This document shows, one piece after another, positions 53,101 to 64,000 of a stretch of DNA of 64,000 nt (position 1 is its first letter; every line of letters starts with the position of its first letter). The stretch lies in assembly GCA_003344405.1 (NCBI GenBank), contig NOWV01000018.1, positions 124,001-188,000 of the forward strand, written 5' to 3'. Below the pieces are notes generated by a model. It made no database searches, was not told the DNA's origin, and was given only the letters and a program-made list of their open reading frames with translations. This stretch comes from Trichoplax sp. H2. Taxonomy: Eukaryota. The position numbers and the translations under genes are program-made.

Positions 53101-55963
53101 ACTTTGATACCAACTCCTAACACTCTTATTGGCTGATGTTAGAAATGAAACAGCGTACAGTACAGTTAGTGTAAGTATTGTGTCCTGTACAACGTGATCC
53201 TACAGTACTGTATACTGTACAATGTACACTCGATATGACAATTTTTGCATCAATTTGTACAAAATTGTTCGTAAATGCATCATTTTAATATGTACGGATA
53301 GCTCTTGACTTAGTGGTTAACTTACTACCATATGAGACCTATGTGTATATATAATTAGTTAGTTTTTGCGACGAAAACCGATCACATTGGACAGTACAGT
53401 ACTGTAGTTCATGGTACTGTACAGTGTACAGTCTGTACCATAACATTTTGTCACTTTCGGGCAATATCTTTCTTTAAAAAGACAGTAAAGCTATAATAGA
53501 ATGATATATTAGGTTGATAAATGCTCAGGAATGTAACAACTCTTAATCAGTATTTGCTTATTAAGATCACTGGTTGATGCTTTTCAAAGTGACAAAATAC
53601 TTTGATACACACTGTACTGTACTGTAAAATACTGTAGTACTCAGGATCATTCAAAAAGTGTCCTGTACTGTACAGTGAGTTAAAAGTCCCCGTTATTGTT
53701 ATTATAATCAACACACCTATCCTGGAGGCGCGCCACATGTCAATACAGTCATGTTATTGGTCAATTTCCCTCATATGATTTGTAATCTGCAATCTAGAAG
53801 AAGGCGGTGTCACCAACAACAATGCCTAGGACTATTCAATTTTCTTGACAGCAGTAATAAAATAAATAAAATAAAATAAAATACTGTATTATGCTGTATG
53901 TGGCGCTTTCTAAAACACGATTAGGATTCAGAACGGTGATCCAATCTCTTCGTCAAAGATCTACAGCACAGTCAATACTGTTATTACGGAGGGTACAGCC
54001 ATGAACTACTAGGAATTTTGACCTTGAAATTTCGAGTGGTCCATGGTAATGTCACCTACATAACTATGGTTGCTCAAAAGACTGCTAAAACAAAGACTAT
54101 AGTACTTTTTAATTTGTGTGATTTGAATTAATTATATGGTTTACAAGCTTCGTATAAATGGATGGTGATGGTTTGTCCGTTAATACTTTAAGGGCAGTTT
54201 TGCCCGCGCGTCCAAATTGAACGTCGCTGCCGGACAAACTTTGTACCAACTATGCAACGAATGCAGTAGCAATGCTGCTCTTGTTTACTGATGTACTGAT
54301 CGTGTAAGATATATCACATAAAACAGAAAGCGTGGCAGTATGACAGCAAATTAGAATGTGTTACATTTACAGCCTAGATTAAAAAGACCAAAGTACAGTC
54401 TGTACAGTCTATAACTGAACATCAATCATGACATAGTTGTGAAAAAATTACAAGAATTAATACCACCCATATTGATAACGGATAGTCCACTACTAATGTG
54501 ATACCGAGGTGCATAAGCGTGCAAGTCTACCAGCATCCAGCTAACTGCTTACTGATGATGCAATTCAATTTGATTTCTGTGATACAGATTTTCTTAACAT
54601 ATGTGGAGGGAGTGCCATTATTAAATTAGTTTACTCTTTTTAGTCTAATAGCAGCGAAGCACGGCTGTACAGCACGTTACGATAAGTTTATACGAGTATT
54701 TATATACTGTACTTAGATCAACGGCTGTCTTTGACTATTTTGTACCGTATTTGTTTAGTCATTGGAAGTATCCCTTATTCTAGGCACGGCACGGCTATTA
54801 TGTCTATCGGTAAACTATTCTGTAGCCGGAAGTGTGTCCATGCCTACAGTACTGTATTTAGGAATCTCGAAAATCCTAGGATACTTCTGTCTACCGTACA
54901 CCTTGCCTAACGTATATCATAACGTTACGAGATGTAAGTCTAACAGCGACACAGCAAGACACGATCATGATCGTTAATCATCAACGAGTAAGACAATCAT
55001 AAACAAACAAAAGATGAGCTGCAAGCCCGATCCTACAGTACACTTCTAGTACTATACCACCTAAAACTTTATAACTAATGTGCTATAAAATTGAAGTTAT
55101 GACAGAAACATTTTTTCGACCTTTATCAGGCCGAATATAAAATATCGATTCACGAGTGACCCAATTCGAAACATAAAGTCACAGTGTAGGCCTACATGTA
55201 GCATTGTGATTTCGTAGAATTTTAACCTTTAGCTTAACAGAGTGGCCATTAAATCCTGTCATTTCCCTAGGGTATGTTTCAATCTAGTGATCATTGTACT
55301 GCATTACAGGCTGAAAATAAGACTTTGATATACTTGAATTTATAGTGGTAGATTGCTTCATCGACTTTTTTTTCAGATATGCAGTATAGAACAGGTTGAT
55401 TAAATAAGAGTGTATCATGTACTGTAGATATACCTTATATCACTTTCTATAATTAATTCATGTTTTTTCATAAGGAAACGAAAGACAATTCGATTAAAAC
55501 AGTGAAACAAGTTCTGACTTGAAACTGCTGATAACTGTTTTACAGCATGGTAACATCGCAATGCCAGTGTTAACCGTATTAAAATTGGCCCATGATAAGA
55601 GTGTATTGAAGATGTCATTTTTTATTTACAGTAACGCGTCAAGCACTTGCAATTTTACATGCTATTTCTAGCTATTCCAAAGTAGTAAGATACAAAATGA
55701 ATCGTAAACTTACCTAAGATCACTTCTTCATCATCCACTAAAACATCCGCAACGTGATCGTTTTCGTATAATATTGCCCCCTTTACGTTACGTAATCGCA
55801 CTTGTGTACAAACGTGTAAAGTGAAATCTGCAGGACTAACAGTTCTATCCGCTTTACTCATATGGCGTTTCACTATTTCAGAAATTAGCCAATCGATCTT
55901 TTGATTGCCCTCTTTACAAGGAATAACGTAAGTATCATTCGAAATTCGAGCTAAGATTTTCAT
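47136..55963 (-). CDS. HAL: Histidine ammonia-lyase with animal-type N-terminal (Par3/HAL-N) domain, multi-exon
   Basis: Exon 1 [29 protein letters not shown]... Then [24 protein letters not shown], the MIO-forming [17 protein letters not shown] (about 50220-50265), [43 protein letters not shown] and [15 protein letters not shown] at 47136-47138. Confidence 0.95.
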
Positions 55964-56104
55964 GATTTTGATCTCGTCCAAGTACAGAATAAGGAACAAA
56001 CAACCGCGACGCGAAAACAGTAGCGTAATTGGTCCGTAAATAACTTTTTTTCTCGCGGGCCGCAGTTCCCAAGTCTGAGTTGTACAGTACATTGTACTGT
56101 ACAA

Positions 56105-56285
56105 CAATTTGCTTTTATTTGTACTTTGAGAATTTCTATCCAAAAGTCTGTGTCATGTCTTTCTTCTTATTGTGACAGTTCTCTGCGATATTGTACAAGA
56201 ATTTTCTGTTATTTGTACTTTGAGAATTTCTATCCAAAGTCTGTATCATGTCTTTCTTATTATTATGACAGTTCTCTGCGATATA
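56105..56285. repeat. Tandem duplication, two copies of about 94 bp, just upstream of the HAL start
   Basis: ATTTGTACTTTGAGAATTTCTATCCAAA.GTCTGT.TCATGTCTTTCTT...GACAGTTCTCTGCGATAT occurs twice. Confidence 0.88.
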
Positions 56286-58006: not shown

Positions 58007-58505
58007 TAGTGACTAGCGAGTACAATGCAGTACTTTTACGCATTTATAGACAGTATTTGCTACTACATTAGATTTCCGATAATGACTGTACTATACACCC
58101 AGTATACAGTACGTACAGTATGTTCGTAAATTTATACTTATTACGTACAATATATACAGATTAATTAACTATATATATAATTATTTACAATATATAGTGA
58201 CTAGCGAGTACAATACTTTCACGCGTTTATAGCTAGTACTTGCTACTATATTAAGTTTCCGATATTGACTGTACTGTATGCACTAGACTCTATTCGTAAA
58301 TTTATATTTATTACGTATATATACAGATTAATTAATTATACTGTATATTTATTTACAATATTTAGTGACTAGCGAGTACAATACTTTCATGCGTTTACAG
58401 CTAGTACTTGCTACTATATTGGGTTTCCGATATTGACTAGACGTGCACTAGACTGTATTCGTAAATTTATACTTATTACGTATACAGTATACAGATTCAT
58501 TAATA
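58007..58505. repeat. Diverged tandem repeat, about 3 copies of 168-188 bp
   Basis: TAGTGACTAGCGAGTACAAT at 58007, 58195 and 58363; TTCGTAAATTTATA.TTATTACGTA in each copy. Confidence 0.88.
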
Positions 58506-58520
58506 CTAGTACAAACTCCA

Positions 58521-58785
58521 GTCACTATGCTGACGGATTACGTTATTATGATATTCCAAACTCCCATCGCTTTGCTGACGAACTATGTTCTTATAATATT
58601 ATACTTCTAGAATATTATTTTACAATAATACTTTAAACGTGACTCGGTCTTGCGTCGCTACGCTGACGGATTACGTTGTTATAATATTACAAACTCCCGT
58701 AGCTTTACTGACGGATTATGTTCTTATAGTCTTATACTTCTAGAATATTATTTTACAATAATACTTCAGACGTGACTCGGCCTTG
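58521..58785. repeat. Tandem duplication, two copies of about 133 bp
   Basis: GCTGACGGATTACGTT at 58529 and 58662; TTATACTTCTAGAATATTATTTTACAATAATACTT and CGTGACTCGG in both copies. Confidence 0.88.
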
Positions 58786-59437
58786 TCCTCATTAACTATA
58801 CTAATCCATGATGGTTATTTGACGGATTCCGGTAATACTCTTATATACGTTAACGTTACAAAATATATTACAGTTACTATTCAGGAATTTGATTTTACCA
58901 AATTTTATTGACATCCATTCACTATCTTCCACTGTATAGTAGAAACCAAATCATACGCAAAGCCATGCTAATAGTCTATGCATTACATTCAAAAATTTCA
59001 TAGCGTTGGAACTAAAGTTCTGTAAAAATGTTTATTACTAAAAATTTCAAACTTGTAAATCAGCATTATTACAATACTTCTACACTGCTGCAATTGATGA
59101 TAATTTCAGTATACGAATTAAATAAACCCTTTATACAAATGACAATGCTTCCTAAAAATGACAATCTCGACATGCTTAAGTGCACGCAGATTGTGGTAAT
59201 TACATTCAAGCTTTACATACATCAAGGAATACTTTAAAACAGGATTAGACAATTCTAATCATTCTATATACAAAATACTGTATATACGTATATGTATGAT
59301 AAGAGTTTGCAAGCCTTTGTAAAGTGACGTTTTTTTCTCTTAAATTACCTAAATCTGGTAAGGTAATAGGACCAAGAATATTTGTTACTGCTCTGTTTCA
59401 TTCCTATAGGTATTTCGATTTTCATCCTTTATATTAT

Positions 59438-60585
59438 TTAGTCGCTATCGTCGTCATAATTCGTATGATGTTCTTCCGTATTACTCGTATTAGTATCATC
59501 ATCATCATCAGGCTTTTCTGTTTTTTTCGTCATATGTCTTAACAATGCTCCTACAATAACATAGAACTTAATAAGTAACCTCTAATATCGATTAAAATCA
59601 ATAACACTTTACTTCGTTTTCGTTCTGATAATTCGTTCAATTCTCTTTCAAAAGCAGCGTCTTCAGACTGTTGCTGTGATTTGGTTAGGAGAGGTCTGCG
59701 GGCACCATTGCGATAAACATTACATCAGTTCTTATATAGCAGAGATTATAAACTACGAAATTCTTATAATTAATATTAGTCATTTTCTAAGTACACTAGT
59801 GCAGTATCATTTTCATTCAGTAAACTTACTTATCCATATTTTCAAATTTCTTGCCACATTTGGCACAATAACCGTGTGTAGTTGAGCAATTAGAACAAAT
59901 TACATAATAACTTTGCATTATGTTTCGTTCCAAGCATTTAACACTATCAACCAGTAAATTGGTTAGAGTTAGTCATTCCATATACAATACAAATACAGTA
60001 GCTAAATATCTTGTCACTTGTTAAACATCCAATCATTAGAAAGCCTACAGGCTAGCCACCGAATGATAGAAGTTTCAATTAACTAACAGTGATTTGTAAC
60101 GCAAATTGAGTAAGGTAAAATTACGCTGTCTTTACTTTAAAGATCAATTACATTATGGCATGATATTTTACGATCGCTTACCATTTACCCGGTTGAGTTA
60201 AGGGTTTATATTTCTTATATCGAATTTTCCATTCGATGACGTCTTTGCAACGACTGCAAACACCCTGTATCTGTGTCTCCATAATCTGCTTGGTCTTTCG
60301 TGATGTATCATGTAATGTCGGATTAAAAGCCCGAGTATTTTTATATTTCTGGCCTATGATGTTTCATGTTTATCATCGTTAAATCTTATAGTGAATACTA
60401 CGTATCCCACAGAGGTATAAAAACAGCTACTTTGTTACTCGATATAGTGCAAAACTTCAATCCATAGCTCTACGATCTGTTGCAGAGTTCGAACTCAAAA
60501 TTACATGCACATGCTATGCTAATAACCACTGTAAAAATGGATATAGACAGCTTATGTTACCTTTTTTCTTGTGTCCCGAATTCAT
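59438..60585 (-). CDS. C9orf85: C9orf85-like / DUF2039 cysteine-rich protein (5 exons; not in the ORF track)
   Basis: Spliced: MNSGHKKKGQKYKNTRAFNPTLHDTSRKTKQIMETQIQGVCSRCKDVIEWKIRYKKYKPLTQPGKCVKCLERNIMQSYYVICSNCSTTHGYCAKCGK..., with an acidic tail. This matches recalled C9orf85 (QKHQN..GVCQRCKEVLEWRVKYSKYKPL..CVKC..CAKCGK). Confidence 0.9.
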
Positions 60586-60977: not shown

Positions 60978-63900
60978 ATGGAGGAAATACCAACTATTCT
61001 CATCTTCTGTAACCCTCCATCGATTAATAATAAGCATTTATCCCATCAGACTGACCACCAAAGTAAAAAGAGAAAGTTAAATCCAGCGAGCATTCAATGG
61101 AAAAGGAAATTATATCGTCATCCGTGCAAACCAATGCAACCATCGACGAGTGCTTGTCAACATGATGATAAAGATCGAAGCAGCAACAATAGTGGCCCGT
61201 CTACATTTGAATATATTAATACTGTTATAGATCATGGCAGTAATTTACAAAAGGAATTTGATCGATTGATGAGAGATAGCCAAGCGATAATGCCAGGTAT
61301 TAGTAGTCAATCTGGCTTTCAAGATACCGATCAGATCCTATGTAGTGATAGTAATAGTCACGATTTCGACTACCATACTAGCTGGAATGACAGCCTTCCC
61401 ATCGACAATTTCAACTCAATACCAGATAGTTGCGAAATAGAAGAGTTTACCAGTAGCACTTATAGTAGTTGTGATAGTGTCAAGACTTGCGATAGTATCT
61501 CATCAGATGATCATTGTAATGAAAATCAGCTATTGGCAAACAAAACAGAAAATCCGATCGCTAGTGATCAAGCTGCAGAGACCTCATCAGGTAATTCTAG
61601 AGGTACACACGTACGCTGCATCAGGACAGCTACAGTTGTCTATTTTCATCTATCAAATACGATCCAGGCCATTGCTTCATCATACAATGATAAAACGAGA
61701 TTTGCATAGTCACATTTTGCTTACTCCGCAGTATACGCGTATACATACTACCATTATCAATCTACTCTACCAAAATGCTATACATAGCAATCCGATAGCC
61801 TCCTTTGTAATGTATTTCTATCTACAAGTCAGATGGATCATATTACAAATAAGTTCTTGCCCTCAAGATGTACAAAATAAATATCAATCTAATTAACTAA
61901 GCTCGCAATTCTTCATGCAGTTTCACTATCTAAGAAGTATCTTCAAGCATTGCAGTATATAAATGATAGCTCATGCGCATGTATTCATATGTTTTGGTGA
62001 TAGATAAGCTTCACCAACCGACAAGAAATCAAGATTCGCAAGAACTTTTACCTAATTTCAAGGTATGAAATCTTAATCAAATTAAAAGCAAGAATGTAAC
62101 ACTAGCACAATACTGTAAATGTTGATTTAAAGTAGTAACTACTACATCAAGTTAAAAATTGTAATAAAATCTTAAAATGCATTATTCAATTTCACACTAT
62201 TACTTTACCTGATATTCAATCGTGCAGTATTGTATATTATCAACCCATGTATATCTTTATAGTATATGTTATACGGTATTACTATTAGGGTATGCTTCTT
62301 TCATATAGTAACAAAAGACAACGATTATTTATATACTTCCTATATCACTTCTAAATCTATCTAAATTTCTCCTGCAGATTTCCAAGATTGCCAATTGTAC
62401 CCAAAAGTCTCAATTAGTCAATTTACTGGTAGTAGCACTTCAAGGTGATTGAACAATTAATGTAATTAACCTCAAGTAACATGAAACTTTCTTCTTTCTA
62501 GTATAAAAACAAATTACTTTAATAAATACCTTATTTGCAATCCTTTAATTGTCAAATTTTAGTGAATCCAGCTCACGAAATTCAAACTAAATCAGGCAAA
62601 AATGTAAGTTTAAGCAATACACCAAGCTTGCTTTTACAGTTAATGTATTAGCTACATAAATAAAATGCTAATTTTAGGCAGGACAGATGATTTTAATTGG
62701 ATCTATGCTAGTTGGTGACCCAACTCAGAGTTATTTTAAGGTGAAAAAATAATGCCGTTAATGCAATATAGCAATTATAATAACTATGACTGCTAAGATT
62801 CAAACTTCCTAGGCTTCTTTCTACACTTAGATTACACTCTGGAGACAAAATACTGCATGGCTTGAAAGGATAAGCCTCGGAGATATTCTATTACTTGCAG
62901 GTTTAGGATCATATTTCATATCGTAGATGGATAATAAAAACTTTATGTCAAAATCTATTTTTTTCGAACCTTTTGTGATTATAAATACGAGAAAAAAATA
63001 ACAGTCGTCTATACTTGCAATTAATACGGATATCTTTTACATATCCTCACTTGATGTAATACTTCAACCCCTAGATTTAGAAGTCGACGAGTGGCGTGGA
63101 AAATATTTTGCTCAAAGTATTCATTCTTCCTGGGTAGTTAACCTTCATAAATGTAGAGATATAACTGGTAAAAGAGGTTAGCTATCAATTTTTCTAATAT
63201 AAATATTATAAGCTAAAATATCAGTGCTCTTCAGGATAGTACAAACCATTTTTAATACAAATCCTCATATATATCGTAAATTCCTTTTTCCAATACTTAG
63301 TTAGACATTATATTCCATCAAAAACCATGGATGATGTTTACACATGGGCATCGAATTACTTGCCACATATATATAATACAAATGATCAATCAACCTTGCA
63401 AGTACAAAGCAAAGGTAATTCACCCTCGTCACTATAGCTATATATGTGTTTCATCTAGTAATTCTAGTAATATCGTCTACCTGATGTTTTGATATTCAAG
63501 GAGAGGTTCAATTTGTTACTTACAAGAGCTTAACTCAGGACGTTGTAGTTCATTTCAAGGCCAAGTTGCTATCGATCAAATGCTATACTAGTAAATAAAT
63601 AAAAGCACTATTTCTACACGTAATGTAAAAATTAACTCGCTCTTTCTTACCAGTTGTTTTATCTTGTATTAATAATGCACTCTAGTTGGAAATGTTACCT
63701 ATCAGTATGAAACTAAGCGCCTCCCAAAAATGGTTGCTAGTAAGTTGAAAATAGTAATAACAGTTCAAATTTTAATTTCGCTCATATTTTCATTCTCTAT
63801 TTTAGCATTAGCGGAATCATCTGTACAAAGAATTAAACTACAACTGTAAGTGAACGATCTTAAGAAATGTTTATGGTGAATATAAATATATCACTTCATA

Positions 63901-64000
63901 TATAACTGTATTGCAGTTGGGGCAGACAGGCTAGATGGTTCTCAGAATTAAGAGCTAATATCAATCGAGTTTGGAAGTGGTCCTTTCTACATGTTCACTA
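60978..64000 (+). CDS. SHLD2: Shieldin complex subunit 2 (FAM35A/RINN2) homologue, 3' end outside window
   Basis: Exon 1 (60978-61590) has an N-terminal motif plus a Ser/Asp-rich linker. In-phase exons follow: KIANCTQKSQLVNLLVVALQVNPAHEIQTKSGKNAGQMILIGSMLVGDPTQSYFKITLWRQNTAWLERISLGDILLLADLEVDEWRGKYFAQSIHSSWVVNL, then VQFVTYKSLTQDVVVHFKAKLLSI..YQYETKRLPKMV..LQLWGRQARWFSELRANINRVWKWSFL. These align to the recalled first two OB folds of human SHLD2. Confidence 0.82.

What the first reader, a model, noticed from the sequence alone, without database searches (positions are those of the whole stretch)
60978..64000. SHLD2 (shieldin) homologue with its N-terminal partner-binding motif in an apparently early-branching animal
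Seen in sequence: about ten small exons missed by the ORF track splice in phase into two OB-fold-like regions. These match recalled human SHLD2: LWRQNTAW..SLGDILLLAD vs LWRTAAFW..FLGDIILLTD; LWGRQARWFSEL..VWKWSFL vs LWGPGAAWYPQL..IWEFKYL. The N-terminus ILIFCNPP...WKRKLY parallels human VHIFWGAP...WKKIQLLY, the segment that binds REV7-SHLD3. Established: shieldin was originally described as a vertebrate-type complex linked to class-switch recombination. Inference: the SHLD2 architecture (motif, disordered linker, OB folds) and possibly a REV7-based shieldin are much older.
Basis: partly seen in the sequence, partly recalled or inferred. Interest (0 to 1): 0.72.

Follow-up and report, generated by a model that had tools for sequence, protein, structure and literature searches.

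The report
Placozoan shieldin SHLD2 DNA-repair gene
This is an intact, spliced gene of the very simple animal Trichoplax that encodes the counterpart of human SHLD2, a protein that likely shields broken DNA ends together with REV7; databases already name it, but several papers still call this system vertebrate-only.

Summary
Confirmed. The gene runs past the window edge: 22 GT-AG exons, 697 aa, in agreement with RNA-type contigs. It is a full-length SHLD2 orthologue: all three SHLD2 Pfam domains pass cut-off, a CxxC-CxxC ribbon is present, and RPA1 and CTC1 are separate loci. The protein is already deposited as 'Protein FAM35A [Trichoplax sp. H2]', and RefSeq names a Nematostella SHLD2. The N-terminal ILIFCNPP starts at residue 7, like human VHIFWGAP, and keeps F10 and P14. 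It is not significant against a vertebrate-type profile (66/1000 shuffles) but is against a broader one (0/1000). REV7, RIF1, 53BP1 and CTC1 genes are in the genome; SHLD3 and SHLD1 were not found, by weak searches. Weaker SHLD2-like proteins with the motif occur in a choanoflagellate and chytrids. Three papers read say vertebrate-only, one says 'a few invertebrates'; none of my searches found a study of a non-bilaterian SHLD2. The scan noted fungal and oomycete look-alikes before on other DNA. Verdict: a real, annotated but unstudied orthologue that undercuts a repeated claim.

The parts
60978..61590 (+). Exon 1 (coding part): N-terminal motif plus most of the polar linker (aa 1-205)
   Evidence: First ATG after an in-frame stop; covered by RNA-type contigs from 60909/60949 to the exon end; 100% identical to the start of deposited P0001
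60996..61019 (+). Motif ILIFCNPP (aa 7-14), likely counterpart of the human strand V7-H-I9-F10-W11-G-A-P14 that docks on REV7
   Evidence: Same residue numbers as PDB 6KTO chain D; P14 invariant in 29 aligned proteins; 0/1000 shuffles against a 31-sequence non-placozoan profile but 66/1000 against a vertebrate-type profile
61098..61115 (+). Second motif WKRKLY (W41), likely counterpart of the human SHLD3-facing strand WKKIQLLY
   Evidence: W41 nearly invariant in alignment A1; the hydrophobic register after the W matches only partly
62004..62062 (+). Exon 2 (linker end, aa 205-224)
   Evidence: 59 exonic nt in this depth bin in two runs; keeps frame
62378..63414 (+). Exons 3-8 (62378-62444, 62563-62603, 62678-62740, 62831-62900, 63075-63176, 63301-63414): first OB fold
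   Evidence: PF21669 SHLD2_OB1 E 3.8e-40 on P0001 230-361; exon sizes fit depth bins
63501..64000 (+). Exons 9-12 (63501-63590, 63686-63739, 63806-63845, 63917 to 14 nt past the edge): second OB fold. Exons 13-22 (third OB fold with CxxC-x15-CxxC ribbon, stop at G000:C219:189860) lie beyond the window
   Evidence: PF22779 E 1.7e-8 and PF15793 E 8e-26; junctions of exons 13-22 read directly in contigs of three runs; model

Best explanation
This is the intact, spliced SHLD2 (FAM35A) orthologue of the placozoan Trichoplax, whose three predicted OB folds likely grip single-stranded DNA at resected breaks while its N-terminal strand likely docks on REV7. Shown: gene structure, domain order, orthology, and presence of REV7, RIF1, 53BP1 and CTC1 genes in the same genome. 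Inferred from the human system: 53BP1-RIF1 marks the break; the I7-P14 strand packs against REV7 with F10 in REV7's hydrophobic pocket; the W41 strand closes a beta-sandwich over a strand supplied by a diverged SHLD3-like bridge that I did not find; the OB folds then hold the 3' tail, limit resection and favour end joining or CST fill-in. Confidence in orthology alone is about 0.97; the figure given is for the whole mechanism.
For: Pfam SHLD2_OB1, OB_SHLD2_2nd and SHLD2_C all over cut-off, against 6.9e-7 for REPA_OB_2. A profile of 10 named vertebrate SHLD2 proteins scores the model 281 bits, above Ptychodera 241 and Nematostella 219. Of the 10 best non-self clusters, 8 are named SHLD2/FAM35A and 2 unnamed. 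Atlas top three feature hits are SHLD2 clusters, 0.95-0.96. PF21669 hits only this locus in the genome (2 of 2 candidates). F10 contacts O-REV7 and the second strand pairs with SHLD3 in 6KTO (PMC7181697 passages); P14A/P17A abolishes REV7 binding (PMC6156606 passage); F10 and P14 are kept here. Trichoplax REV7 (E 1.4e-72 to human) keeps Y63, R124, K129, W171, P188, K190, Q200, Y202 equivalents and a hydrophobic F10 pocket. 53BP1-type Tudor plus BRCTs, Rif1_N and CTC1 found.
Against: No SHLD3: 0 of 5 FxPWFP hits and 0 of 12 relaxed-motif hits look like it, at or under the control counts of 5 and 36, and no candidate was recognised in the first two introns of TRAPPC13. No SHLD1_C hit. The N-terminal motif is weak: W11, G12 and P17 are not kept, 2.7 bits against a vertebrate-type profile, no hit to 6KTO by direct phmmer and no Atlas feature hit for aa 1-60. 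REV7 has S where human D66 bridges SHLD3 R10 (31 of 46 aligned have D, 10 N). REV7, RIF1, 53BP1 and CTC1 have shieldin-independent roles, so their presence is weak support.
Confidence: 0.5

Rival explanations
1. Two-part ancestral shieldin: SHLD2 binds REV7 directly, its I7-P14 strand sitting under REV7's safety belt like an ordinary REV7-binding motif, with no SHLD3 or SHLD1.
For: No SHLD3 or SHLD1 found. In 6KTO the SHLD2 strand occupies the site that RBM2 takes in closed REV7. Non-vertebrate motifs often end in PP (ILIFCNPP, ILVFLPPP, LLLFMGPP, LLLFPPP), like the 'pP' of the general REV7-binding consensus (PMC9926120 passage). D66-to-S in REV7. A fungal Rev7-Rif1 end-joining factor unrelated in sequence is described (PMC11526942 passages).
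Against: The W41 strand, which pairs with SHLD3 in the human structure, is kept. The first P of PxxxpP is missing. The absence searches are weak: the same kind of search missed the 53BP1 Tudor that is present.
Confidence: 0.18
2. True SHLD2 orthologue, but working apart from REV7 as an RPA/POT1/CST-like ssDNA binder (telomeres, forks or meiosis); the N-terminal motif is vestigial or binds another partner, and vertebrates recruited it to REV7 later.
For: Weak motif match to vertebrates. SHLD2-like three-OB proteins without the motif exist, e.g. a lycophyte protein of 438 aa. Next Atlas neighbours are CDC24-OB, POT1, MEIOB and CTC1 clusters at 0.90-0.93.
Against: The motif is kept at the extreme N-terminus, at the same residue numbers, across placozoan, cnidarian, hemichordate and vertebrate proteins, beside a linker that does not align; its only known partner in the papers read is REV7-SHLD3.
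Confidence: 0.3
3. A different OB-fold protein (RPA1, MEIOB, RADX, CTC1 or POT1 paralogue) that resembles SHLD2 only through shared folds.
For: REPA_OB_2 passes its cut-off (29.6 vs 27 bits); pairwise identity to vertebrate SHLD2 is only about 26%; the OB1 tree is unresolved.
Against: Three SHLD2 models in the right order score far higher; no MEIOB, CTC1 or POT1 model appears at E<=1; none of 30 clusters looked up is named as such a protein; RPA1-type and CTC1 genes lie elsewhere and their exons score at most 4.8 bits against the vertebrate profile, versus 16.8 here.
Confidence: 0.02

Closest known systems
Vertebrate SHLD2 / FAM35A / RINN2 (human 904 aa; N-terminus in PDB 6KTO)
   Same: Order: short N-terminal motif, polar linker, three OB domains (PF21669, PF22779, PF15793), CxxC-CxxC ribbon in the third; F10, P14 and the downstream W kept; about 26% identity over some 470-490 aa to bird, bat and shark proteins.
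   Different: 697 aa with a linker of about 165 aa; motif diverged (C11, N12, P13, N17); 22 small exons; no SHLD3 or SHLD1 found in the genome; no function tested.
Nematostella vectensis 'shieldin complex subunit 2' (XP_032235417.2) and Ptychodera flava SHLD2-like
   Same: Best non-self full-length hit (E 2.3e-53), same three Pfam domains, short linker and ILVFLPPP-type motif.
   Different: 27% identity; named by automatic annotation, and no study of it turned up in my searches.
RPA1 (RPA70), POT1, CTC1, MEIOB OB-fold ssDNA binders
   Same: Tandem OB folds; zinc ribbon like RPA1's (PMC6003645 passage); weak REPA_OB_2 match.
   Different: Much lower scores; lack the N-terminal motif; RPA1-type and CTC1 genes are separate loci in this genome. 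MEIOB, POT1 and RADX loci were not searched.
Cryptococcus Njf1-Rev7-Rif1 'shieldin-like' pathway (PMC11526942)
   Same: Shows that a Rev7/Rif1/53BP1-type end-joining pathway can exist outside vertebrates.
   Different: Njf1 is described as detectable only in basidiomycetes and not as an SHLD2 homologue; I did not compare sequences.

Membership tests
SHLD2/FAM35A | Three C-terminal OB domains matching SHLD2_OB1, OB_SHLD2_2nd, SHLD2_C in order | tested here: met
   137, 34.8 and 90.9 bits against cut-offs 26, 27, 27
SHLD2/FAM35A | CxxC...CxxC zinc ribbon in the third OB | tested here: met
   C575, C578, C593, C596 of P0001, invariant in 29 sequences
SHLD2/FAM35A | Best relatives are SHLD2, not RPA1/MEIOB/RADX/CTC1 | tested here: met
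   8 of top 10 clusters named SHLD2/FAM35A, 2 unnamed; vertebrate-only profile 281 bits; only locus for PF21669 in the genome
SHLD2/FAM35A | Disordered linker between motif and OB folds | tested here: inconclusive
   aa 61-224 are 65% S/T/D/N/Q/E/P/K, 27% hydrophobic, no Pfam domain there; disorder itself was not predicted
SHLD2/FAM35A | N-terminal REV7-interacting motif (V7-I9-F10-W11, P14, P17; second strand I39-L41-Y43) | tested here: inconclusive
   I7, I9, F10, P14 and the W kept; W11 and P17 not. 66/1000 shuffles, 9/1000 and 0/1000 with broader profiles; no Atlas hit
SHLD2/FAM35A | Binds ssDNA through the OB region | not testable with these tools
   Needs a binding assay
Shieldin complex | REV7 present with dimer-interface and safety-belt residues | tested here: met
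   G000:C198, single exon, 215 aa, named MAD2B
Shieldin complex | SHLD3 present (FxPWFP plus PxxxpP) | tested here: inconclusive
   0 of 5 and 0 of 12 exact-pattern hits fit; patterns miss diverged or intron-split motifs; no SHLD3 profile was available
Shieldin complex | SHLD1 present | tested here: inconclusive
   No PF15021 candidate; the same search type missed a Tudor domain that is present
Shieldin complex | Upstream 53BP1 and RIF1, downstream CTC1 | tested here: met
   Tudor_3 E 5.5e-8 with BRCT and BRCT_3 E 1.7e-13 at one locus; Rif1_N E 8.2e-9; CTC1 E 1.2e-11
Shieldin complex | SHLD2 N-terminus physically assembles with REV7(-SHLD3) | not testable with these tools

The most novel reading that the evidence does not exclude
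Shieldin is older than animals and began as a two-part SHLD2-REV7 clamp: SHLD2 with its docking motif, OB folds and zinc ribbon was present in the ancestor of animals, choanoflagellates and fungi (Salpingoeca kvevrii HVFTGAP protein; Borealophlyctis protein), and Trichoplax keeps the form that works without SHLD3 and SHLD1, which were added later.
Probability: 0.15. Interest if true: 0.75.

Novelty: new member of a known kind. Interest (0 to 1): 0.4.

Why it matters
Papers from 2018 to 2024 state that SHLD1-3 arose in vertebrates or are undetectable outside them (PMC6003645, PMC9926120, PMC11526942). A full-length, spliced SHLD2 in a placozoan, beside REV7, RIF1, 53BP1 and CTC1, means the DNA-binding subunit predates bilaterians and antibody class switching, and that its reported absence from flies, worms and yeast is probably loss. 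It makes a concrete question testable: in what order were the subunits assembled, and can SHLD2 engage REV7 without SHLD3? The gene itself is not a discovery, since databases already name it.

Tried and rejected
Structure prediction of the protein and of the SHLD2(1-60)-REV7 pair: tools not available, so no model of my own and no fold search. Direct PDB searches with the N-terminus, one exon and the whole protein found no SHLD2 chain (best hits archaeal SSB OB folds, E 0.11); the hit of profile A1 to 6KTO chain D (E 8.3e-7) reflects its vertebrate rows and is not evidence for the placozoan motif. Word-indexed homologue searches returned only the two Trichoplax records. A tree of the first OB (38 rows, 148 columns) left the deep branches open and had no true RPA1/MEIOB outgroup; not used. 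SHLD3 by synteny (nested in TRAPPC13, recalled from the human locus): the first intron here is about 130 nt, and 14 frames from the 1.4 kb second intron gave no Pfam match under E 0.07; by-eye likenesses there were dropped. L015, the most SHLD3-like FxPWFP hit, is a short frame among stops without a downstream PxxxpP; rejected. The 9-aa extra exon of the deposited model P0001 (62263-62289) is not in the RNA-type contig. The motif regular expression (34 of 46 long hits; 0.07% of shuffles) was written after seeing the sequences and is descriptive only. Gupta 2018, Noordermeer 2018, Dev 2018 and Setiaputra and Durocher 2019 were not held; their species figures and supplements may already list invertebrate orthologues.

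Full report
Observation. The window is G000:C219:124001-188000. Of 10 translated pieces scanned, four matched SHLD2 models on their own. I fetched 6 kb beyond the edge and laid four of the 20 listed runs on the locus; one is on record as RNA, three are guessed RNA. Three runs (three studies) show the same nine GT..AG skips across exons 13-22; the fourth shows none and looks partly genomic. Nineteen joints were not printed, so the in-window exons were derived from depth per bin. After correcting one acceptor by a base, the model has 22 exons, all GT-AG, no internal stop, 697 aa, and predicts 1335 nt between two anchor points where the contig has 1335 nt. The gene is therefore intact and spliced; contigs cannot show its level or ends.

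Identity. The first exon retrieves two records at 100% identity: 'Protein FAM35A [Trichoplax sp. H2]' (RDD45147.1, P0001, 706 aa) and an uncharacterised T. adhaerens model. P0001 equals my model plus one 9-aa exon that the contig length does not support. It passes the cut-offs of SHLD2_OB1 (E 3.8e-40), OB_SHLD2_2nd (1.7e-8) and SHLD2_C (8e-26); REPA_OB_2 is 6.9e-7. A scan of 1.84 billion representatives gave 155 hits at E<=0.001; I looked up 30 of the 150 listed: 14 carry an SHLD2/FAM35A name, the rest are unnamed or hypothetical, none is named RPA1, MEIOB, RADX, POT1 or CTC1, though one weak hit (P0143) is RPA-like by Pfam. A profile from 10 named vertebrate proteins only scores the model 281 bits, Ptychodera 241, Nematostella 219. 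In the genome SHLD2_OB1 hits only this locus (a lower bound), and RPA1-type and CTC1 genes lie on other contigs. Orthology is secure.

The N-terminal motif. In 6KTO, SHLD2 strand 1 (V7, I9, F10, W11) pairs with open REV7 and SHLD3, F10 fills a REV7 pocket, and strand 2 (I39, L41, Y43) pairs with SHLD3 (PMC7181697, abstract and passages); P14A/P17A abolishes binding (PMC6156606, passages). The placozoan protein has I7, I9, F10, P14 at the same numbers and a W-K motif at 41, but C11, N12, N17 and a shifted hydrophobic register after the W. Against a profile of 33 vertebrate-type N-termini (several unnamed, classed by likeness) it scores 2.7 bits, reached by 66 of 1000 shuffles; against 12 non-vertebrate N-termini 5.7 bits (9 of 1000); against 31 mixed ones without placozoans 13.9 bits (0 of 1000). 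I chose those rows after seeing them, which favours the result. Direct PDB and Atlas searches with the N-terminus found nothing. I put homology of the motif at about 85% and retained REV7 binding lower.

The rest of the pathway. REV7 is a single-exon gene, E 1.4e-72 to human MAD2B and about 1e-12 to MAD2A; 17 human interface positions checked are identical or similar except D66 to S, but most also serve polymerase zeta (my knowledge). RIF1, 53BP1 (Tudor_3, BRCT, BRCT_3 at one locus) and CTC1 are present. SHLD1_C gave no candidate, but the 53BP1 Tudor search also gave none although the gene exists, so this is weak. For SHLD3 I had no profile: the exact FxPWFP pattern gave 5 hits (control 5) and a relaxed one 12 (control 36), none SHLD3-like in frame, and the TRAPPC13 introns gave nothing. 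SHLD3 is neither shown nor excluded.

Deeper range. Weaker hits include two choanoflagellates, five chytrids, a mortierellid and a lycophyte. The Salpingoeca protein has HVFTGAP near its start (17.5 bits against the vertebrate-type profile), SHLD2_OB1 at E 5.9e-16 and a zinc ribbon; the Borealophlyctis protein aligns across all three OB regions and is already named SHLD2. Their whole-protein scores are 21-62 bits against 219-281 for the placozoan, cnidarian and hemichordate proteins, and the Didymoeca protein had no stretch over 5 bits. The tree did not resolve them. A pre-animal origin is plausible, not shown.

Mechanism. Most likely the protein works like human SHLD2: OB folds on the 3' ssDNA tail, N-terminal strand on REV7, with a diverged SHLD3-like bridge, downstream of 53BP1-RIF1 (0.5). 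Rivals: REV7-independent ssDNA role (0.3), direct SHLD3-free binding (0.18), mis-assigned paralogue (0.02).

Literature. [quoted passage not shown] PMC6138439 and PMC7407515 (passages) add nothing on range. Nine searches listed no study of a placozoan, cnidarian or choanoflagellate SHLD2; four key papers were not held and no supplements were read, so an earlier mention is possible. That shieldin was first tied to class switching as a vertebrate novelty by Gupta 2018 is recalled.

Verdict. Real, correctly identified, already named in databases, apparently unstudied. It contradicts a repeated statement and opens a testable question on subunit order. Interest 0.4.

Noticed in passing
L002:5214-9501 (G000:C219:189713-194000), minus strand: A FAN1 nuclease gene (FAN1_TPR E 1.2e-27, VRR_NUC E 0.001) converges on SHLD2; one contig runs without a break from SHLD2's last exon into FAN1's spliced exons, so the 3' ends seem to touch or overlap. 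Two DNA-repair genes tail to tail; probably chance.
   Followed up: partly
window 59438-60363, minus strand: A DUF2039 gene (E 1.9e-18) lies head to head with SHLD2, within about 600 bp.
   Followed up: partly
window 62263-62289: The deposited model P0001 has a 9-aa exon here that the RNA-type contigs do not hold; the T. adhaerens model P0002 lacks several real exons.
   Followed up: yes
window 55658-56152, minus strand: A frame matching Par3_HAL_N_term (E 1.8e-7).
   Followed up: no
window 58010-58790: Imperfect AT-rich direct repeats seen by eye (about 190 nt three times, then about 130 nt twice).
   Followed up: no
L008:6650-8080 (G000:C408), TRAPPC13 second intron: A 1.4 kb intron, long for this genome, with coding-like pieces broken by stops on both strands; no Pfam match. 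Unexplained.
   Followed up: partly
L036:3853-9041 (G000:C1018): A 53BP1-type gene (long polar exon, Tudor, tandem BRCT) that the 53-BP1_Tudor genome search missed.
   Followed up: partly
proteins P0075, P0093, P0080, P0076, P0103, P0107: Proteins of 440-550 aa with SHLD2_OB1 near the start and little or no linker; P0075 is from a lycophyte. Possibly a motif-less SHLD2 relative outside animals.
   Followed up: partly
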